A stretch of DNA of 61,124 nt, filler included, from Sphacelaria rigidula (lineage: Eukaryota), in the NCBI GenBank assembly GCA_964200075.2. It is 6 parts of 6 records of this genome, joined end to end, with 100 filler letters (N's around TTAATTAATTAA, not from the genome) between each part and the next. Parts side by side here need not be neighbours in the genome. Positions count along the whole stretch, not along the records: positions 10,206 to 20,310 come from CAXNAA020007134.1; 5 more parts are not named here. The stretch is one strand, 5' to 3'. The position numbers were made by a program, and so were the translations under genes. The notes beneath the pieces were generated by a model. It worked only from the letters and a program-made list of their open reading frames with translations. It was not told the DNA's origin and ran no database searches. Every line of letters starts with the position of its first letter. Position 1 is the first letter of the stretch. Positions 10,106 to 58,100 of the stretch are shown piece after piece.

Positions 10106-10205
10106 NNNNNNNNNNNNNNNNNNNNNNNNNNNNNNNNNNNNNNNNNNNNTTAATTAATTAANNNNNNNNNNNNNNNNNNNNNNNNNNNNNNNNNNNNNNN
10201 NNNNN
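10106..10205. other. Artificial contig linker N44-TTAATTAATTAA-N44
   Basis: 100-bp six-frame-stop spacer repeated identically five times in the window. Confidence 0.97.
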
Positions 10206-10636
10206 GGTCGTGTAAAAGCTTCAATGACTTCGTCCGCGAGCACCTCGAGGCGCGAACACCACGCCGGGGGGGGGGGGGGGGGGGGGGGGGGGACCCGTTA
10301 ACCCTCAGCCAGCGACCCCCTCCCCCGCAGGAGGGCTGAGATGGACTATGCCACATTTGGGGTTCAGAGCAGCTCTTTTGTCGCTACACAAAACGCTTTT
10401 CTTCATAGACATGAGAATGTTGGAAATCACCATAGAAAATATTCGCGGAGACCTCACCGGTTTTGACCTCGCAGCCAAATTGCGTGCAGGGTCAGCGTGT
10501 GTGCTGCATGTCTCGGCTGGATGGAAGAAACAGTCAGCATGCCATTGCTTTCCACTGAACATAGTCTACTTCATGCTGTCGATGTTTCTGCTTCGCAAGA
10601 AAACTAGTGTCGAGATATACTGGCAACCCGCTCGTT

Positions 10637-11792
10637 CAGGGATGAGTGCGGTGCTAGTCGTGAGGAGTGTGGCCCCTCGCGGGCGCCGCAACCAACCCGC
10701 GAAAACGAAATCAGCGACGACGATCGCGAGATGGATCCAGCACCAGCAGCGCCACAAAGAGAGACGAGTGAAGCAGGAGCAGCAGGCCCGGACCCCGTGA
10801 TGCCACGAACTGTGCAAAAGTCCTGAAGTGCGTTTTTTCAAATCCCGGAGGCCACCACCAAGGCGCGCGACAGGGCAATAGCGAAGAGGACACGAGAGCG
10901 GGCGGCGACCGTGATTGGCAACACTGAGACCTCGTCGGCGCCTGCCAAAGACGCCACCATCAGCAGACCCCGCAAACATGTCTTCAGCGCGAGCAGGAGA
11001 GAGGAGGGGCAGGTCAACGCCAAACGGCGCCCGTTCAAGTCGAAAGGTGGCCCGACGCCTTTCAAGCACAAGCCCAATTCAAAACTCACCGTGTTCGATC
11101 GTCTGAAAGAGTTCCCGAACAACAGCTTCGTTCGGTTCGAGAACGGAAAGCTGGCATGTTCGGCCTGCACCCACAAGTTCATCGACCGCATCAGGAGGAC
11201 CAAGATCAGCTTGCACTAGTTGATCTTAGTCTTTCTGATGTGGTCGATGAACTTGTCGGCGCAGCTCGACCACACTAGCTTGCCGTTCTCCCGCCGAACC
11301 AAGCCGTTGTACGGGAACTCTTTCAGACGATTGAACACGGTGAGTTTTGAATTGGGCTTGTGCTTGAAAGGCGTCGGGCCACCTTTCGACTTGAACGGGC
11401 GCCATTTGGCGTTGATCTACCCCTCCTCTCTCCTGCTCGCGCTGAAGACATATTTGCGGGGTCTACTGATGGTGGCGTCTTTGGCAGGCGCTGAAGAGGT
11501 CTCAGTGTTGCCAATCACGGTCGCCGCCCGCTCTCGTGTCCTCTTCGCTATTGCCCTGTCGCGCGCCTTGGTGGTAGCCTCCGGGATTTGAAAAAACGCA
11601 CTTCAGGACTTTTGCGCAGTTCGTGGCATCACGGGGTCCGGGCCTGCTGCTCCTGCTGCGCCCGTCTCGCTTAGTGGCGCTGCTGGTGCTGGATCCATCT
11701 CGCGATCGTCGTCGCTGATTTCGTCTTCGCGGGTTGGTTGCGGCGCCCGCGAAGGGCCACACCACTCACGACTAGCACCGCACTCATCCCTG
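10637..11792. repeat. Spacerless long inverted repeat (2 x 578 bp) of a transposase-gene 5' region
   Basis: cagggatgagtg (10637) pairs with cactcatccctg (11792). The axis is at 11214/11215 in aagatcagcttgc|actagttgatctt. The arms are colinear with no net indel and roughly 93% identical by eye. Confidence 0.95.
10700..11219 (+). pseudogene. N-terminal fragment of a hAT-type transposase with CGGBP1-like zinc finger (left arm; mirrored on - strand in right arm)
   Basis: LTVFDRLKEFPNNSFVRFENGKLACSACTHKFIDRIRRTKISLH resembles, from memory, the DR..EF...GKL.C..C......RK..I..H zinc finger of CGGBP1/hAT transposases. There is an in-frame TGA upstream in both arms, and the ORF is truncated at the palindrome axis. 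Confidence 0.55.
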
Positions 11793-13909
11793 CTGCTGCT
11801 CCTGCTGTACTCTCCCTGCTCATCATTGCTATGATTGACGAGCAGGCTTGTTATTGTGCTGCACCATATGCGTAGTGTGTACTGTAGTGTCTGTGTGCGG
11901 ACTGCTGTATATTGGTATATATTGCTGCAGATGAAAAGATGAGAAGGTCCAGGGAGGAGGAAGAGAGGGGGAGGAGGAAGAGGAAGAGGAGAAGAAAAAG
12001 GAGTAGATTGAAGATTAAGCAGGGAGGGCAGAGACAAAAGTAGAGGCTGAAGGAAGCACGGCGGTGATTTTTTTTCGAGGCACCGGCGGCGAGGCGCGCA
12101 GAGTTGGCTTTTCCAAGTATCGATGGGCTCAGTCATCCAGTTCGGGCGATCTGTCGCCCCCTCTTTGTTCTAGTTTTTCGAAGTTTTTCATGTTGTGGGA
12201 AGAAACCCTTTGTTCAGTATGCGAAGGTCATGGCGAATTTCACAGCACGGCTTCAATTATTTCTTTTAATAAGTAGCGGCGCGCGGAGAGGAAGTAAAAA
12301 CATTAAAACAATGAAGCTCGGCCTTCGCTTCCTACGCGTTTTTGCCGAAAAAAATATGCGTCCAAAAGGGGGTCATTATGAAGCGGAAACCTTGCCGAGG
12401 CGTTACAATTACTAGATTTTAGTGTGTAACACCGAAAAGCAAGAACGCACAAGTTATGGGAATTATGCGAAAGCATCAGGAACATAAGCCTCAATGATGC
12501 TGAGCTTTTTCGATCGGAAACATGTGGTCCAAAGGCACGAAGCCCCATTTGACTCCCATCTTACAGACCATCATGCCAGATATCACCCGTTCACAGAACA
12601 AGGCGACCTTCACAAAACTCGTTCAGTTACCACCGCAACCCTGCAGCATAGAGCACGAGTGAGCTCAGGGATAGTATATTTTGAGCTATTTTTACTGTGG
12701 CGCAAGAATGTTTTTTCCTGAAAATCTTTTCCCGGCACATGTTGACTCCTTCTTGAAGCCCAACTAAGGCACCAGAGAGGTCCGTGGAGTTCAACCCGCA
12801 CCCCGATCACCATAGTAGAAGACAGAGAGACAGAGAGACAGAGAGAGACAGTACGGACAACACAATTGGATGCCATGTACAAATGCTTGATCGCGCCAAG
12901 TGCACCCGAGAAAGGCGAGACCTATGCTTCACACCTATTTCGTGCCGCAAAACCACTAGACGCGATGTGTGCAGTGTAGTACAGTTGTTCTCGCTCAGGG
13001 GTTCCAGAGGATGGTATGTGCTTGCCTCCCTGCCGGCCCGAAGCACTGGACTGAACTTCCAATTGTACCTCTCTCCTAGTCTCATAAAACGGCGAAGTAA
13101 TCTCTATGCGATGAATCAGTGTAATCAAATAAGAAATGTACCCTCACCTTACGCTGTGTCTTCTCGATCACCTCCATCATGACTCCCGTGGGCAGCGAGA
13201 TGCTCAAGACCGGGGTGTCGTCCTAGGCTGTTGCCAATATTTGTTTTTTACATGAGGAATATTTTCCGTGATTCAGACCCGCGGTTGAGCACAAAAAACA
13301 AACATACCAACAGACGACAAACACCCTCTTCTACACGATTAGGGCAAAGTAGATAAAAAATTATTCTTCGCCCCTCTGGGAGTTAATCGAAAGCATATCC
13401 CATGCTATTCTGCGCAAAATACCGCGCTGGTTAGGAAAAAGATGAACTGCGTCCGAAAATTAAAGGCGTTGGATTTTGTGTGGCAATTCCGCCGCATTTT
13501 TTGGGGTAAAACATGTACAGTACGTTTAAACAGGAGACGTAAATTTAATGTTGCTGATGTATCTCCAGGGTAGTGTGGATGTACCGCTGTACCGCGCACA
13601 TCCCCTCGTGGTTGATCGCCATCTTGAACTTACAATCGCTATCATGAGCTCGTGAAGTATGTACGTTGTGGTGGAGTCTTTCGTAGACGGGCGCCGAGGA
13701 AGTGCTGCAATTGCAGGTATCTTTAATGTGGGACAACGATATTTTGGAAGTGATCAAGTGATCTATGTTGGAACTTGCTGCGGCGGTTACAACTTCGTGT
13801 GCGTCGGGTATCTTTCGCACTTCTTCGGTATCTCGGAATGGGGTCGGCAATTCCAGCCACCGCCTCTGCAGCAGTCACTAGCGCGGTAAAACTCAGGTTC
13901 ATCGGCAGC

Positions 13910-16991: not shown

Positions 16992-18444
16992 AGATTCTTA
17001 TAGAGAACACAGAAACAGCTATGGGGTGTAAATATTCCTCTGGATTTTCTTGCCACGACGAGGATTGTACTTCGAGAGTATTTCAGAAAAATATACTCTA
17101 CAGTAGAAGGTCAAAATTGCTCTAGAGTATACAGTATGTGAGGCGTCTAGAGGGCATATTCCTCTGGGGGGAATCAAGCCCTTCATAGGATGGAAAGAGC
17201 CGCAAATGCTCACGAGTAACATCGGCCAAAGCAGAGTATCACGAAATACTCCGAGGGTTGAAGAAATACTGCGCTGGATGGGAGCCGAGTGGCCACGTGT
17301 GTAGCCATTCAGTGCGTACCAAATTGGACACACCCATCCGCTAGAGGGACTAACATACGCAGGGGCAATGCACAACAAAATGCAGGGAATATGAACCCCT
17401 CAGAGTCCCACCCCCCCAAATCGACGGAATGTAAACTTAGGGCCCATATTTGTTGAAAGCTGAACTACGTGACGAGCTGGGGATTTTGCAGGGCTAGTAC
17501 AAGTTTCGAGTTTCCATTCACTCGATTGGGAAGTTTGCGAATACTGGTTGTCACCATCACCCGAAAGTTTGAGGGTCAGTAGGCGTTGAGAAAAGAATCA
17601 GGTTGTGCTCGTGACAAATTTCGCAGTTTTGTGCTTTCGTAACAATACGGAGTAAAGCACCGTCAGTCGAGGGGGTGTTATTGACCGTATAAAGGGTGCG
17701 GACTTTCGTCTGTAGCGCGATTAAAATCCGGAAAACAAAAACTTTAGGGATAAACGTGTTCATTATCACGATCTTGATCGGTTTGGTGGAGATAAAATAT
17801 CAAAGAGTGAGGACCGAGGTCTGTGCACTCGTAGGACCCCCAACGGCCGGTGAGCCCGTAACTCTTGCAGAAGTGGTCATGCAAAATATTTTTCATGAAG
17901 ATTGTGTCAAGTACTCATTTCTCTCGATTCCAAGACTTCAGGATCAAACAGAAACCGTGATGAGTCGTGGTACCGAAAACCTGGAAAAAACGATTTCAAT
18001 CGGGGGAAAAGGTTTGAACTTGTACCACAAAAACGCCATGGCACAATTTGGCGGACGATTCTGACCGGTTATACCATGTTCTACCCGCCTGTCCGCTGCC
18101 GCGGTGCATCACGTCTACGGGGCATGTGGAAGGGAGTCCTTACCCAAATAGTCTGGTCAATTAGTATGAGCTTCTGACAACCAAGGCGCAACTTGCTCTC
18201 ATGGTCTTGTGTGTTTTGCTTTGTTTTGCTTTACTTTTGTGCGGCCTCCTTGCCGGAAGCCATGCGGAACGATTCGTCTTTCTCCGGGCCGATGCTAGAC
18301 CCTAGCCAGGCGGACTTCTTTGCATTTCCCTTCCGTTCCCTTCCTTTCCCTTTCCTTCCCACTCCTCGCTTTTTCTCCTCGTTACGAGGTGGCTGTGTTC
18401 GTCCTGTCCTTTCTTCTATTTCCGCTTTCTCGAGCTTTTCTTAG

Positions 18445-20310: not shown

Positions 20311-20410
20311 NNNNNNNNNNNNNNNNNNNNNNNNNNNNNNNNNNNNNNNNNNNNTTAATTAATTAANNNNNNNNNNNNNNNNNNNNNNNNNNNNNNNNNN
20401 NNNNNNNNNN
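20311..20410. other. Artificial contig linker N44-TTAATTAATTAA-N44
   Basis: Same 100-bp spacer. Confidence 0.97.
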
Positions 20411-27137: not shown

Positions 27138-28761
27138 TCACTCGTTGAATGCGTACAATTCATCCCCCCCAGTGTCGAGTGATGGTTCAAAGTCCTCAGA
27201 TCCTTGACCGGTCGTCACCACAAGCTCTTCCGCGGCCCCCCGCACGAACTGCAAGCACAACGCGAGCACCGAAGATGACCCGGGAAACGTTCAGGGTTGT
27301 TTTAGCTATTGCTCGATTTGCAACTACAGAAGAACGCAAAAGTTAAAACGCGCTGTGGTCGCGCTGGTTTGTTCCCCGCCGACGTTCAATGCACTCGGCA
27401 CATACTGATAATCCCTTAATGCGCAGCCACCAAGTCAAGACACGAACATGGAGACTTTCGTACTGCGATATGAAAATATCTATGAGCGTGTTTTCTGGTC
27501 GTCCAAAGATAGGTGTACCCATATACTTTGCGGTCCACGGAAGAGTTCACACGGTAATGATGCTGCAGCTTACCCGCTGTTGCTTGATACCGCAAGCCTA
27601 ACTTGCTATTGTGACGATACGAGTGGTACAACAATGTGGTCACCGTGAGCCAGGGCCGACGTTTGCTAGAGTAGAAGATGGTAAATGACCCTTCAACCCG
27701 GAGCGCAGACTTCTAGCTGCTCCTATGGTCAGGCCAAGTTTTCCTACTTCTGGTCGCTCAACATATTTCCTTACCCGCGGATAACAAGACGCAGGAAACA
27801 TGAACTCACGGGGTGCTGCAGCAGCTTCTTGACCTTCATTCGTTTCTCATGATTGATGTTGAGGCATTGTGACAGAAAATTCGTCGCGTCGTCGGAGATA
27901 TGCTCAGGAAACGCTGGCGGCTGGAAAGGATAAGCACGTTCAACGAAGATGGAGCGGCGGCGAGACGGTGTGATGGGGTGGCAACACTATGGCAGGGAGG
28001 AAGATGGGTACAAGGATACGAGCATGAAGGCCAACCGTCGTTGTGAGGAAGATAAGCTTCGGCCGCCCAATCTCCCCTCCGATTTCTGTCGAGGTTTCCA
28101 TCGACCTTGCAACTACTGTCCATCGCTCTACTAGCGTGCTCACTTTTAGTGGCGGGTGTGCAAAAAGGACGGGGGATCGCTGTTCTTGAACGGGTCGAGA
28201 AACAAGGTTGCACTTCCGCGAACCGCGCCCCACTCTGTATTTGTCTTTAGCTTTAACGTTTTATCCCCCGCCGTGTTGCTTTGACGGCACGACACATCGT
28301 CGCCACATTGTCGGAGACGTGTCCAAAACGAATCCCGGTCAAATCGACTCCAAACGGAGAAAAATCACCGTGTCGCATACATTACTATGCCAAATACGAA
28401 GTCGACAGCTGCAGTATTGAAAATAAAGGACACTTCTAGTATATACATGGATATGGATATGTATCCTCATTTGTACAGAGCAACTTTGTTTCTGTTACGA
28501 CTTAGTCTGCGATGTCGTTCTGTCCGACTTTTTTTATGTTCCCCTCTTTTCTTCAGGGCATGTTTCAGTGTTGTTTTTGTTGGGTACATCTATCATGTCA
28601 CTATCATGTCACTATCATGTCACTATCATGTCACTATCATGTCACTATCATGTCACTATCATGTCACTATCATGTCACTATCATGTCACTATCATGTCCC
28701 TATCATGTCACTACCATGAGACCACGGCTGGACCCCTGGGGGGTCAGTTAAAGTGCGACAG

Positions 28762-30514: not shown

Positions 30515-30614
30515 NNNNNNNNNNNNNNNNNNNNNNNNNNNNNNNNNNNNNNNNNNNNTTAATTAATTAANNNNNNNNNNNNNNNNNNNNNNNNNNNNNN
30601 NNNNNNNNNNNNNN
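30515..30614. other. Artificial contig linker N44-TTAATTAATTAA-N44
   Basis: Same 100-bp spacer, preceded by an (ATT)n microsatellite at the contig end. Confidence 0.97.
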
Positions 30615-40718: not shown

Positions 40719-40818
40719 NNNNNNNNNNNNNNNNNNNNNNNNNNNNNNNNNNNNNNNNNNNNTTAATTAATTAANNNNNNNNNNNNNNNNNNNNNNNNNN
40801 NNNNNNNNNNNNNNNNNN
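40719..40818. other. Artificial contig linker N44-TTAATTAATTAA-N44
   Basis: Same 100-bp spacer. Confidence 0.97.
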
Positions 40819-50921: not shown

Positions 50922-51021
50922 NNNNNNNNNNNNNNNNNNNNNNNNNNNNNNNNNNNNNNNNNNNNTTAATTAATTAANNNNNNNNNNNNNNNNNNNNNNN
51001 NNNNNNNNNNNNNNNNNNNNN
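50922..51021. other. Artificial contig linker N44-TTAATTAATTAA-N44
   Basis: Same 100-bp spacer. Confidence 0.97.
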
Positions 51022-51044: not shown

Positions 51045-51134
51045 TGTGACGGTTTCAGAGACAACCAACTAGACTACTGACGAGTCAGCGCTGACTAGTC
51101 AGTAGTCTAGTTGGTTGTCTCTGAAACCGTCACA
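51045..51134. repeat. 90-bp near-perfect palindrome (one mismatch, no spacer)
   Basis: tgtgacggtttcagagacaaccaactagactactgacgagtcagc|gctgactagtcagtagtctagttggttgtctctgaaaccgtcaca. Confidence 0.92.
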
Positions 51135-52145: not shown

Positions 52146-55100
52146 CTGCCGAAGCAGCTGCTTCTGTGGTTTTTTTCCTGTGCTTCGCGGGAGGACGGAA
52201 GACTGGATCTAGAGCCAGGCTGAGAGTGTCGTCGATCACGGTAACGATCATGCTTTCCAGTATGGGGCATGCGAATTCCAGGCACGGGTTGGAGTTCACC
52301 TGCACATACAGTAAACAACCAAAAGAAAGGGGAAAGATGAACAGAGAGCAGACGTTAGAGTTGACCGTGTCTATCTTCTTCACTGCTAGGTCCCAGATTT
52401 CTTGTCGGCTGTTCCTTGTCATCGCAGGTTTGCTATCTGCTGCTTTCGGCTGTTGAGGTAAATTGTGTAGCATGTTCCATGATGCTGATATTGTCTTGCT
52501 GCCCCGTCTTTCGCTCTCTTTGTGATTTGCTAATCACCATGGCCGGCAAACGTCAATTGTCAGGGGAGAACAGAAAAATTGATTTCGAACGACAGGGCTT
52601 TACGTTTGTATAGGTAAGGGTCATCTGGAGAGGGACACTGATTCCGCCAATTTTCTCCCATTTGTACTCATGACACGAAATTGTAGGTGCTATTCAGTTT
52701 AGTGGCCACTAAATTTCCAGGCAATCTCCAAGCGTTGTACTCTAGGCACAAATTGTTCCATGGTTATGAAAATCGTATTCACCGCGTCCACTCTGTTTTA
52801 TCTTTCTTACTCCACCTTTGCCCCATCTCAAGTCTTTCCTGTAGCCGATGAAGTCTATCTCCTCGTTACGGCTGAACTCGTTCCCAACTAAGTGATTGTG
52901 CGAGAATCAACCAACCAACAAACCAACCAATCAACCAACTCCCCAGCCTTTTCAGTTCATGTCCGTACATGCTTCCGACACGGGGGTGGTACAATTTTTA
53001 CAAGGTAGCGGAGTTTTTTTCCTGCACAGTTCGGAATAGCAGGATGCTTAATGCCAGGCAACAGCTGTATCGACATGCATCACCAATACCTCAACCTGGA
53101 TGACTGTAACTATCCATAACTATGTATAAGGTGAGCAAGATTTCAATAGTTTTTCGGAAATACTATATTTGCGGGTTACCTCTGGCAGTTCGGCTTCTGT
53201 TGCCTCAGCCTCAAACGGAAACCGAATAATGCTGTTATTTCTTCTCGAATAGATGTCCTCCTTCAAGATGAGTATGTCTACCTCCACGCCCTGCTCACGT
53301 TGTTCGGACTGCCCATTAGCGCCACGTCGCACAAAAAACGCCTCGGTACTTTTAGCAACACCGGGGGTGCTGGATAATCGTCCCCGGGCTCGCAGTTTCA
53401 CGAATACAAGGTAGTCACCAACCATTCGCTTAATGTTTTCCCCTGCAGACTGACGGCCCATGACCTCAACCCTCTCCCCTTGAAGAGTTCGATATACTTA
53501 CTGCGGCAGCAGTGGCATAGAACTCAATATAAAAATGATGTATTGGCCTACATAAATACGTGGACTTGCGTGGATGTCATTGCCAACCCCAGTCCTAGCC
53601 TTCGCCCTAGGTCTAAACTTAGCCCTGACGCTAGCCTCAACCCTGAACTGAACTCTATGGCCACCACAGCCAGAAGACCGGAATCGTGGGGAAAGGGGCG
53701 AGCAGCACGCAACACACGAACGCGGCGACATCGACTGGCCCGAATTTCCGATAAAAAGAAGGTTATCAGATTTTCACGGGGGAGATATAACAACTCCGCT
53801 CAGCTTCACCAAGCAGTACCGGAGTTGTATACAGTTGATATGTCTTGCTGCTGTTGCAGTTGCCGTGGCGGTTGCCGTTGCCGATATCAAAACGAGCGAA
53901 CCTTACAAGGTTGTGTTCTGTACGGTACGGTTTTCTGTATCCTCGGGGTATTTCGCCGGGTGTTTACCGTACCCGACAGTTCTGTGACTTCTGTAAGACT
54001 TTCATACCGGTACCCGGCAGTTCTGTAATCTCTGTAAGACTCCCGTACCGTTACCGGGGGGCACGGGTACGCTCTTGATAAGATACCTGATTGCCGGTAC
54101 GGTTTTCTGTGCAACCTCCATACCCTACCTGACAGTTTCTGTGAGTTCTGTAAGCCTCTCCTACCCTCACCCGACAGTCCCATGAGTTATGTACAGAATG
54201 TTTACCTGTACTCGGAGCGCGGGCATGCTCCTGAAAAAATACCCGAGTGCCGATCACTGTTTTTCTGTAAGCCTCCCATAACGTTCCCGACAAGTTCTGT
54301 AAGGTCTGGAAGACTTTCATTCAGTACCAGTACCCGACAGTTCTGTGAGCTCTGTAAGCCTCCCATACCTTTACCCGGGGTTAGGGTATACCGTTGTAGA
54401 TATACCCGATTGCAGGTTGAGCATAGGTGTATACCTTGGGGAGGTACGGATACAGGTTCAATCCAAACGCAACCTCATGACCTGAACAGGTACCTCCCAT
54501 CGATCAACCCACCCAACCACTTCATTCAAAGCTGCACACCAACGATAATTCAATGTTGAAAAGTTCGTTACTTTGGGATCTGACGGGATACAAGGTACCA
54601 CTGAGTGGAAACACGAAACATGTACAGCCCTGCAGACCGTCAGGATGGATCACCCCCAGACTCGAGTGGTGGCTCGAGGGGGGGCGGTTCATCTGCGCTA
54701 CCAGGGGATCAAGTAACAAGACGCACGCCATCGACGTTGATGGTGATTGTGCTGTCGTCATCAAACCCCAGGCCGTTTTCGACATGTACAGCACGGAGTA
54801 TGAGCTGCCACCGAAAGTCGTCAAGGCCGTCGGCGATTTTGTCGCGTGCTGAAGGGCTTCCAGAGAACGGGCAGCCGTTAATGCTCCTTCATGTACTCTC
54901 TGGGAATGTTCGTGAAGCCGACAGATGTTGACGATTCCGTGCACATGTACTGCTGCGATTGTTCGTGCAATCTTTCTCTGTCAACCCCGTGAAGCCGTTC
55001 AGAGTTTTCGTGAACTGTCATCTACATTTAGCTACTGTTGTAGTGACGTAGCTTCCACCACAGGGGCGATGATACTACCAAGGTCGTGTTTTGTAGGGTA

Positions 55101-58100
55101 CGGTTTTCTGTAAACCCGGGGTATTTTGCCGGGTGTTTACCGTACCCGACAGTTCTGCAAACTCTGTAAGATTGCTGTACCGGTACCTGACAGTTCTGTA
55201 ATCTCTGTAAAGCCTTCATACACGTACCCGATAGTTCTGTGAGTCTCTGTAAGCCTCCCGTAGCGTTACCGGGGGGCACGGGTATGCTCTTGAGAAGGTA
55301 CCCGGTTGCGGGTACGGTTTCCTGTGCAACCTCCATACCCTACCCGACACTTTCTGTGGGTTCTCTCAGCCTCTCATACCCTTACCCGACAGGTCTGTGA
55401 GTTTTGTACAAAACATTGGGGTTAGGGTTAGGGTTACCCGATTGCCGGTACTGGTTTTCCGTAAGCCCCCCATACCGTACCCGACAAGTTCTGTACTTTC
55501 TGTAAAAGTTGCATACCGGTACCCGACAGTTCTATAAAGAGTTTTATACCGGTACCCGACAGTTCTGTAAGTTCTGTAAGGAATATCATACCCTACAGAA
55601 CGTACCCGTACCTTACAGAACACAACCTTGGAACCTTAGGTCTGAAGTCGCGAAACTGGAGCTGCACGCGTGAGTGATTATCAGGCATCGTCAAACCTGA
55701 GTCTTCCGATGAAACGACCTCCGAGCTAGCAAAACCCAGTTGAATAGCGCACTTCACGTCGTCCCAAAGCGATCGTTATGACTGTCTGCACAGTCATCAT
55801 GAACAAATAAGCATACAGTGGATGAGAAGAAAGAGCATTCACCTCAATTAACCATACTCGCAAATCGTCGTCCACCATAAAGTCATACCCCAACAGCTCG
55901 AATGCGTGGGGCCGTCCCTGCCGATTTATGCCGGCCGCCGCTGCCGCCGCCACAGAGGTGCTCACCAATTTGTGCATCCGAGGGCGCAGGGTATCCTCCA
56001 CCCACCCAACCGCTCGTCCCTGATGATTCGACCTGCCAGCGCCGAACACGGTTGCCAAGGTGTTGTTTTATTTATTCAGAATTCTGCCTAATTTCTAGCT
56101 CTATCGAGATCCGAAGAATGACCGAGCAAGGAAAAAAATGCGAGAAATAATAAATTCATGGAGAAAACAGCACCGACAAAAACCCGTGTAGGGCGCGGTG
56201 TGGGATTGAAGGTGTGGTGTTTCGTCCCGTGGTTGATTTTTTTCGAAAACAAAAGAAACAATGCGGGATCATTTCGGATCCAGGCGGGGAAGACGGGGGC
56301 GGGGTGGAGGTTCATCCTTAAAAGCATCCGCGACAGTAGTGCTGTACCCACGGAATCTACGTGGCGTCTGTCTTCAGCGAACCTCACCGGTGGTGAGCGG
56401 CAAGAGGCAACGGAGAACTGTGTCGAGATGCTGATCTGAAGGAACGTCCGCGTGCCAAAGGGTTGACAGCGAGGCCCAAGCGTTGGTTGAAATCTGGCAG
56501 ACGAAATGTATCTGGGAAAGACTGCGTGCACTGCCATGCCGATTGTCATTTTCCATCCTCGTTTCCATTGGGCATAGTGGCACTGTATTTATTCTTACTT
56601 CCAGTGGTAGGTCACCACGTCTGTGGTATCTGCTCCATGCCGCGCCTCAGCCAAAAAATGTTGCCCTTAGTTATCTACCCGTTAGACACATTTGTCGATC
56701 GACCAAATAGTTTTCGCTTCCATATCATGGCCAGGGGGCATCTGGCATACGTACACACAAGGATTTCGGAGGCTTGCGCTGCCACGCTCAGTGGCTCGAC
56801 CTTCCATGATACATGAGCATCGGTGATATTTATGTGCGTTGCGCAATGACACGCGTCATACCTATTAGTTCAAAGAAGAAGGCGCAGCTGCTCATCAGCT
56901 GAGAACGTTGTGCGTGACCTTGCACGAATCAGTTCAAATTTCAATGAGACCTGATCCGAACATTATGCCCATTGAATTTTCAGCAGAAACAGTGCCTAAG
57001 AAACATTTTCAAGCTTCAAGAGGAAGTGAAACCTGCTATTTTCAGCGACTCATGATGAAAAGAAATCGCGTGCGTACGGTAGAGTAGTAGCAGCAGCTGC
57101 TGCAGCAGCAGTACAGAGACAATAGACAAGGAAGGGCAGCTGAGACGATGCGATATGCGTGCAAGGTCAACGCACGCTCGAAGTGTGCCAGCCCTGCCCC
57201 GAGAGTAGACTGTCAATTCTCAAGTGAAGATTATGCCGATTCAATTTTCAAGTGAAGACGACGCCGATTCCACAAATGACTGTGGTCCGTGAGCGATCGA
57301 GAGAGACGACGGCACCTCCGACGGTCAAAGGGTCCACTGACCACTGACACGTCGAGAGAGGAAGCATATCGAACAGAACGCATCGCAACACCATAACGCC
57401 GTGCGGAACACAGCGCGGAAAGCAAATGTACTCTAAACCCGAGCGGAACCAGAATCACGATACTCTCAAGCGAAATGCCGGCGGAATGTTTGCCGAAAGA
57501 TCTCAAAGAAAACGATGTACTCTCTGATATATCTTACAGACGAATTTCGGGGCTGTTAGAGGTTGAGACAAGGAAATGGCACCTGTCTGAAGGAAGAGTT
57601 GCCCCTCACGTGGCAAATATTAATGTTGTATCCATAATAGTAATACTGTCCTCATCATCGTCTACAGCTGTCTGAAGGAAGAGTTTCCACTCACAAGGTA
57701 AGTAATAATATTGCTTTATAATGGCAATAATATCATCTATCTTTCGTCTGAAAATTAAGCAGGAATTTCTCTGCCATACTGACAGGCCGGCATTTCATTT
57801 TTCAGTCTGAGAGTCCTGCATTTCCTCTCTACTATTCAGATTACGTTTCGTGCCTGTAAGAGCTTTCAGCGCTCGAGAGACCATTCGCTTGACTCTAGGG
57901 TACGTTCTATCCCTTCTTGTGCCTTTTTAGTAAATTCGCTTTCGCGCTCATTCTGAATGGTGTTGTGGTGTTGCGATGCGTTCCGTTTGATGCCTTGTCC
58001 ACGTCGACGTCTGCATTCTTGAAACTTGACGTAGCCTACGACTAGTATTTTGGCTGTGGCGACACACAGAGACCGTTTTGACCCTTTGGCCGCGGCGTCG

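What the first reader, a model, noticed from the sequence alone, without database searches (positions are those of the whole stretch)
10637..11792. Spacerless 1.16-kb foldback made from the 5' end of a hAT-like transposase: a candidate 'Mu killer'-type silencer or young hairpin-RNA gene
Seen: two 578-bp arms meet head-to-head with no loop and no net indel. Both carry the same in-frame TGA, so the ORF was dead before duplication or the arms have been homogenised. The outer ~480 bp differ at roughly 20 positions and include 65-80-nt perfect runs, whereas the ~95 bp next to the axis differ at ~20 positions. The right arm continues (11793-~12400) into what looks like the element's own 5' region, with a CT-rich leader on the minus strand that could transcribe through the hairpin. 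Established: maize Mu killer is an inverted duplication of a transposon 5' end whose hairpin transcript silences the family in trans, and inverted duplication is a known route to new small-RNA loci. Inference: this locus could make siRNAs/miRNAs against active hAT/CGGBP1-like copies in an alga, with the stem preserved while the loop region erodes.
Basis: partly seen in the sequence, partly recalled or inferred. Interest (0 to 1): 0.78.

Follow-up and report, generated by a model that had tools for sequence, protein, structure and literature searches.

The report
Self-copying foldback of dead algal transposon
This is a real, old mirror-image duplication inside a dead DNA transposon of a brown alga, built like the 'killer' loci that silence maize transposons, but its arms seem kept alike by DNA copying rather than by a function and it appears to have no active target left.

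Summary
The foldback is real: 578-bp arms, 41 mismatches (19 in the outer 481 bp, 22 in the inner 97), no indel. Contigs of two other DNA samples bridge the axis. It is the broken core of a non-autonomous hAT element (about 20-bp TIRs, 8-bp TSDs) of a brown alga. One other copy shares that unique junction and stops about 8 bp from the axis, dating the foldback to the family's burst (each arm 8-10% from the ancestor). The inner 97 bp show that age; the outer 481 bp are about five times more alike, best explained by arm-to-arm copying. G·U pairs show no strand bias (12 vs 15); no intact or close transposase target and no host gene were found. Verdict: a fossil with Ac-killer-like architecture, function not shown. 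This scan noted the same centre-diverged, arm-homogenised pattern before on other DNA (red alga).

The parts
10298..10627 (+). 5' half (~330 bp) of an unrelated high-copy ~700-bp MITE with TTAA-type termini (piggyBac-like by recalled signature); replaces the hAT's lost left end
   Evidence: 40 of 662 candidates scored, all match; opposite terminus 680-730 bp downstream in 6 of 14 loci; none in this contig
10624..10634 (+). 11-bp remnant of the hAT leader (B), showing that the left arm once reached further out; 2 of 11 bases differ from the right arm
10637..11214 (+). left arm: decayed N-terminal transposase coding region, ending just after the CxxC of a BED-type finger (CxxC at 11157-11168)
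10637..11117 (+). homogenised outer stem, left half (19 mismatches in 481 bp against 11312-11792)
10824..10826 (+). in-frame TGA shared by both arms (mirror 11605-11603); Leu in P0001 and P0002
11118..11311 (.). non-homogenised core around the axis (11214/11215): 22 mismatches in 97 bp; against copy L010, 8 left-private and 10 right-private changes in 98 bp
11215..11792 (-). right arm: inverted copy, with an extra TAG (11417-11419) and a broken CxxC
11312..11792 (-). homogenised outer stem, right half
11793..11950 (-). segment B: native leader and start of the transposase ORF (the ATG near 11868 is out of frame in this copy)
11951..12251 (+). segment X inner part: CT/GA-rich native opposite (3') end of the hAT, fused to B at 11950/11951; truncated at 12251, TIR lost
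12320..12491 (.). unrelated dispersed repeat to the right of the truncation (another follows at 12492-12674)

Best explanation
A relic of an internally rearranged, non-autonomous hAT element. Shown: family identity, anatomy, age contrast. Inferred: during the family's burst, repair of one copy folded back just after the zinc-finger CxxC, recopied about 740 bp (finger, N-terminal ORF, leader B) and rejoined the 3' end, giving TIR-Y-B-ORF|ORF-B-X-TIR. A derivative of this founder transposed at least once (C1618, which lost one arm). The window copy later lost both ends by deletions into neighbouring repeats. Both arms then decayed neutrally, but the outer 481 bp were re-equalised by DNA-level arm-to-arm copying (intrachromatid gene conversion or fold-back template switching; one long tract about a quarter of the family's age ago, or a steady state), while the ~97 bp either side of the axis stayed outside the tract. 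No present function is needed; if read through, it would give a long dsRNA, but one with almost nothing to silence.
For: hAT: TIR-to-TIR copies with 8-bp TSD at 6/8 or better in 7 of 11 distinct elements; relative P0002 (Ectocarpus sp.) resembles CGGBP1/zf-BED clusters, cosine 0.93. Orientation: B joined to Y in 13 of 18 loci examined, to X only in the window and C1618. C1618 finger ends within ~8 bp of the axis and has a perfect TSD. Age: window X 24/277 (8.7%) from consensus, ten other copies 6.6-14.5%; inner arms 8/98 and 10/98 private changes; outer 19/481, p=4e-15 against 15%. Outer mismatches are spread at random (longest run 80, random mean 84). No G·U strand bias. Control: the family's own 213-bp hairpin in Y, 10 copies, 18.3% arm mismatch, 8 double changes against 8.5 expected, i.e. 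neutral decay like the core. Both arms share 10 changes, a stop among them, at 57 outer residues where P0001 and P0002 agree. IR homogenisation by template switching is described (PMC8604942, passages).
Against: Direct proof that shared changes arose after the foldback is weak: in the outermost 99 bp only 2-4 sites are shared by both arms against paralogs, with uncertain polarity, and 4 are private; the protein-level contrast (10/57 outer vs 1/12 inner) is not significant and could predate the duplication. A second control cuts against a simple 'too close to the axis to be copied' rule: a young 90-bp perfect palindrome family shows 6 compensatory double changes in 495 pairs of 11 copies, against about 0.5 double changes expected (3 of the 6 at one variable site; assembly symmetrisation not excluded). 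The tie to C1618 rests on one copy.
Confidence: 0.66

Rival explanations
1. A transcribed hairpin-RNA locus (Ac/Mu-killer-like or proto-miRNA) whose stem is held by selection on pairing and which yields 21-nt RNAs.
For: Very stable fold on both strands; founder architecture matches Ac killer p1-ww-id4 (10.1101/2020.01.07.897926, Discussion); this is the only copy found that kept both arms; Ectocarpus has 21-nt TE-associated sRNAs (PMC12477816, passages).
Against: No G·U enrichment on either strand (12 vs 15; outer 5 vs 9) and mismatches spread evenly rather than sparing one 21-nt duplex; native 5' end Y absent from the contig; no second close copy of 10800-11300 in the assembly or in laid DNA runs at 85% or more; exact 21-mers shared only with two short non-autonomous copies; nearest transposase locus C334 is broken, 36-39% to P0002, with no DNA match.
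Confidence: 0.15
2. Two separate family copies were joined tail-to-tail later (or by alternative transposition), the 23% core being paralog divergence, with later copying of the outer arms.
For: Core divergence equals ordinary paralog divergence.
Against: Both arms stop at the same base with no spacer or TSD; C1618 shares the unique B|X junction and ends at the axis. It still needs arm-to-arm copying for the outer stem.
Confidence: 0.1
3. A young duplication (4% old) whose core is hypermutated as an exposed loop.
For: Sharp change-point at 97 bp.
Against: Each arm's core changes (8%, 10%) match the family's age; spectrum is mixed (13 transitions, 9 transversions), not deamination-like; C1618, 24-27% away, already carries the founder junction; the remnant outside the left arm is also diverged.
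Confidence: 0.06
4. Assembly artefact (chimera or artificial symmetrisation).
For: Fragmented assembly; short-read contigs collapse the arms into mosaics; no piece spans the whole structure.
Against: Axis and junctions are bridged in independent samples; contig ends fall exactly where shared runs begin; right-arm alleles are seen in X2.
Confidence: 0.03

Closest known systems
Ac killers p1-ww-id1/id4 of maize (bioRxiv 10.1101/2020.01.07.897926; abstract and Discussion read)
   Same: Inverted repeat of the 5' part of a hAT element; the inferred founder had its own 5' end upstream, as in id4.
   Different: Here 578-bp arms without spacer, inside one TIR-bounded element, old (8-10% per arm), both ends lost, no dsRNA, siRNA or silenced target shown.
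Mu killer of maize (PMC3440606; abstract read)
   Same: Partial inverted duplication of a transposase 5' region.
   Different: Mutator superfamily, two TIRA copies, read-through from a flanking gene, demonstrated silencing; none shown here.
Inverted repeats homogenised by arm-to-arm gene conversion or template switching (PMC8600007, PMC8604942; passages read)
   Same: Arms far more alike than their age allows, without need for selection.
   Different: Intermediate size (0.5 kb), no true spacer: the unconverted core is itself palindromic and records the age.
Non-autonomous hAT (Ds-like) deletion derivatives; CGGBP-like hAT N-termini (PMC8097297; listing and start of abstract)
   Same: Short TIRs, 8-bp TSD, BED-type finger followed by a CGGBP-like domain in relatives.
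   Different: This copy has lost both TIRs; the transposase interior is replaced by an inverted copy of its own 5' part.

Membership tests
hAT transposon family (non-autonomous) | short terminal inverted repeats | tested here: met
   about 20-bp TIRs at both ends of family copies; absent from the window copy itself
hAT transposon family (non-autonomous) | 8-bp target-site duplication (recalled criterion) | tested here: met
   6/8 or better in 7 of 11 distinct TIR-to-TIR elements, 5/8 in 2, 2 or fewer in 2
hAT transposon family (non-autonomous) | BED finger / CGGBP-like N-terminus | tested here: met
   P0002 (55% to the arm peptide, E=1e-26) nearest to CGGBP1-like and zf-BED clusters, cosine 0.92-0.93; no Pfam hit passes
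hAT transposon family (non-autonomous) | DDE catalytic and dimerisation domains in an autonomous parent | tested here: inconclusive
   no autonomous parent found; C334 is distant and broken
Mu/Ac-killer-type silencer | inverted duplication of the element's 5' part | tested here: met
Mu/Ac-killer-type silencer | promoter that reads through the repeat | tested here: inconclusive
   native 5' end absent; no host gene found in 50 of 237 ORFs scanned
Mu/Ac-killer-type silencer | dsRNA and siRNA made | not testable with these tools
   no small-RNA or stranded data held
Mu/Ac-killer-type silencer | homologous active element to silence in trans | tested here: not met
   none in the assembly or at 85% or more in laid DNA runs; assembly is fragmented and searches score only best candidates
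miRNA locus | precise miRNA/miRNA* duplex | not testable with these tools
   no reads; no Rfam match in the window; stem much longer than the 170-nt mean Ectocarpus foldback (PMC4513859, passages)
arm-homogenised inverted repeat | arms more alike than their age allows | tested here: met
arm-homogenised inverted repeat | post-duplication changes shared by both arms | tested here: inconclusive
   2-4 candidate sites in 99 bp; shared stop and 10/57 residues cannot be dated

The most novel reading that the evidence does not exclude
The founder foldback, read from the element's own 5' end on the + strand, was a naturally arisen 'hAT killer' in a brown alga: its age equals that of every copy examined (7-14% from consensus, none younger found), so it may have ended the family's activity; the surviving copy still yields 21-nt RNAs and has been kept paired by arm-to-arm copying after its targets died. 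That would be a dated fossil of killer-mediated transposon extinction outside plants.
Probability: 0.12. Interest if true: 0.72.

Novelty: new member of a known kind. Interest (0 to 1): 0.33.

Why it matters
As it stands, a tidy natural experiment: one palindrome records both its true age (core) and later homogenisation (stem), warning that near-perfect long hairpins in TE-rich genomes need not be young or selected. If it proved to be transcribed and diced, it would give a source for TE small RNAs in brown algae, where the trigger of TE silencing is open (PMC12477816).

Tried and rejected
First idea that all family copies derive from the palindromic founder: rejected, since most carry the native B|Y junction and X sequence beyond the window's junction. 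12251 as element terminus: rejected, other copies run on to a TIR about 330 bp further. TIR-like match at 17183: chance, no X or Y sequence near it. RNA: no RNA holder listed; X6 (RNA is a guess) shows only one exact 176-bp piece of the left flank and no cover of the stem; not used as evidence either way. Pfam on arm peptides and relatives: no passing hit. Host gene: 0 of 50 ORFs pass Pfam (50 of 237 scanned). Homolog search with P0001 returned only itself; metagenome scan found none of 255 pattern matches, so no outgroup DNA for the stem. Rfam: no match. X translated in six frames gave no clear transposase C-terminus, so 'X is the 3' end' is inferred from junction counts. A pure distance rule (arms within 100 bp of the axis cannot be copied) fits one control but not the other and is not claimed. 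PMC3176832 passages were read and not used.

Full report
Observation. The inverted repeat is at the stated coordinates: arms 10637-11214 and 11215-11792, 578 bp, no indel, 41 mismatches. A change-point fit puts a step at 11118, with 19 mismatches in the outer 481 bp and 22 in the inner 97; 0 of 500 permutations reach it. Both arms carry the same in-frame TGA; the right arm has a further TAG and a broken CxxC. The central 400 nt fold at about -341 kcal/mol on either strand. The window is a join of contigs; this one is G000:C7134 of a 244-Mb, 27,214-contig assembly. The lineage is inferred to be a brown alga from the relative P0002, an Ectocarpus protein.

Is it an artefact? I laid 4 of the 10 runs listed. 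X2 and X3, other samples from two studies, each have one contig across the axis (0 and 2 differences). X2, X3 and X5 bridge the left flank-arm junction; X3 bridges the right one (X2 has only 22 letters inside the arm, X5 only 23 left of the axis: not counted). These contigs end 30 nt inside the perfect runs shared by the arms, and the collapsed arm contig of X2 carries right-arm alleles at five sites. No piece spans the whole structure, so the phase of the outer variants is not confirmed.

The element. The arm peptide has 5 relatives at E<=0.001 among 1.84 billion representatives. P0002 continues past the finger, and its nearest Atlas clusters are CGGBP1-like and zf-BED (cosine 0.92-0.93); CGGBP-type proteins derive from hAT elements (PMC8097297, listing and abstract start). 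Pfam gave no passing hit. The right flank matches a repeat family whose copies end in about 20-bp TIRs with 8-bp duplications at 6/8 or better in 7 of 11 distinct elements; the 8-bp criterion for hAT is recalled. The family has two ends, X and Y, and a leader B that runs into the ORF. B is joined to Y in 13 of 18 loci examined; B joined to X was seen only in the window and in C1618, and a genome-wide pattern search found exactly these 2 places. So Y-B-ORF is the native 5' end and the CT-rich 11951-12251 is the opposite end, fused at a derived junction (inference from counts; no transposase C-terminus was recognisable in X). C1618 is a 973-bp TIR-to-TIR copy with a perfect TSD whose finger fragment stops within about 8 bp of the window's axis and jumps to the outer 45 bp of Y. 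An 11-bp piece of B lies just outside the left arm. The simplest founder is TIR-Y-B-ORF|ORF-B-X-TIR. In the window, Y and the outer X are gone: the left side is half of an unrelated TTAA-type MITE ('piggyBac-like' is a recalled signature), the right side other repeats.

Age and homogenisation. The window's X part is 24/277 (8.7%) from the family consensus, ten other copies 6.6-14.5%; ten Y copies 6.7-13.6%. In 98 core bases alignable to C1618, 8 changes are private to the left arm, 10 to the right, 15 separate both from C1618. The core therefore shows the family's age, and the outer stem is about five times too alike (p=4e-15 against 15%, 6e-7 against 10%). Control 1: the family's own 213-bp hairpin in Y, in the 10 of 30 loci that span it (20 dropped as partial), has 18.3% arm mismatch and 8 double changes against 8.5 expected: neutral decay, like the core. 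Control 2 points the other way: a young 90-bp perfect palindrome family (11 of 12 fetched copies counted, one dropped for an indel; 40 of 629 candidates scored) has 6 compensatory pairs in 495, about 0.5 double changes expected by my arithmetic, 3 of them at one variable site. Arm copying thus seems to act in this genome, but not by a simple distance rule; near-identity, or the priming stem of a fold-back template switch, may set the inner limit (inference; template switching between IR arms: PMC8604942, passages). Outer mismatches are spread at random (longest run 80, random mean 84), which fits one long tract or a steady state.

Copying or selection? Mismatches that would be G·U pairs number 12 on the + strand and 15 on the - strand (p=0.70; outer 5 vs 9), so there is no sign of selection on one RNA strand. 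Both arms share 10 changes, the stop included, at 57 outer residues where P0001 and P0002 agree, against 1 of 12 in the core; this fits shared decay but cannot be dated. In the outermost 99 bp, 2-4 sites are shared against paralogs and 4 are private. The case for copying is thus strong on age contrast and weak on direct polarity.

Targets and transcription. DNA searches found 3 short paralogous pieces of the outermost ~100 bp (one search adds only B matches); protein searches found C1618 and a distant broken locus, C334, with no DNA similarity. Laid DNA runs show no second copy at 85% or more over about 10800-11300, though one further paralog reaching 11620 appears in X2 and X3. Exact 21-mers of the stem occur in only two other contigs among 88 locus records tested. 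No host gene was found (50 of 237 ORFs scanned). Expression could not be tested.

Comparison. It is built like the maize Ac killers (10.1101/2020.01.07.897926, abstract and Discussion) and Mu killer (PMC3440606, abstract), but the defining target test is not met and the RNA tests are open, so it is not filed as one. Ectocarpus has 21-nt TE-associated sRNAs of unclear origin and 4 hAT families (PMC12477816, passages; supplements not read, they may already hold this family); its miRNAs showed no TE origin (PMC4513859, passages). Arm-to-arm conversion is documented in Y palindromes (PMC8600007, passages). My nine paper searches listed no report of such a hAT foldback in brown algae; the library is partial. 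Earlier notes of this scan describe the same centre-diverged, arm-homogenised pattern in a red alga; I had stated the conversion reading before seeing them and did not check them.

Verdict. Real, old, mechanistically instructive, most likely functionless: a new member of a known kind, interest 0.33; probability 0.12 for the killer-fossil reading.

Noticed in passing
window 51045-51134 (G000:C7138): 90-bp spacerless palindrome, one of a high-copy young family (629 candidates) preceded by a B-box-like motif (recalled label), perhaps the tail of a tRNA-derived SINE; copies show an excess of compensatory double changes (6 in 495 pairs).
   Followed up: partly
L017:2018-2229 and about 30 other loci (segment Y of the hAT): The family's native 5' subterminal region holds a 213-bp hairpin (92 pairs in consensus), itself a possible dsRNA source in many copies; it decays neutrally.
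   Followed up: partly
L078:3680-4930 (G000:C334:13690-14932): Distant, broken hAT/CGGBP-like transposase remnant (36-39% to P0002).
   Followed up: partly
window 10106-10205, 20311-20410, 30515-30614, 40719-40818, 50922-51021: Artificial N spacers with an all-frame stop linker: the window is six contigs of about 10.1 kb.
   Followed up: yes
L003 and L004 (G000:C26410, C23705): Two copies 7% apart that share flanks beyond the TIR: a segmental duplication or carriage in another element, not independent transpositions.
   Followed up: no
window 11097/11332 and 11135: Run X3 lacks the 11097/11332 mismatch and has a new one at 11135: the palindrome is polymorphic between samples.
   Followed up: no
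window 28579-28718; 53900-55600: 11-bp tandem array, and a degenerate ~41-49-bp repeat cluster duplicated at about 1.2 kb spacing.
   Followed up: no
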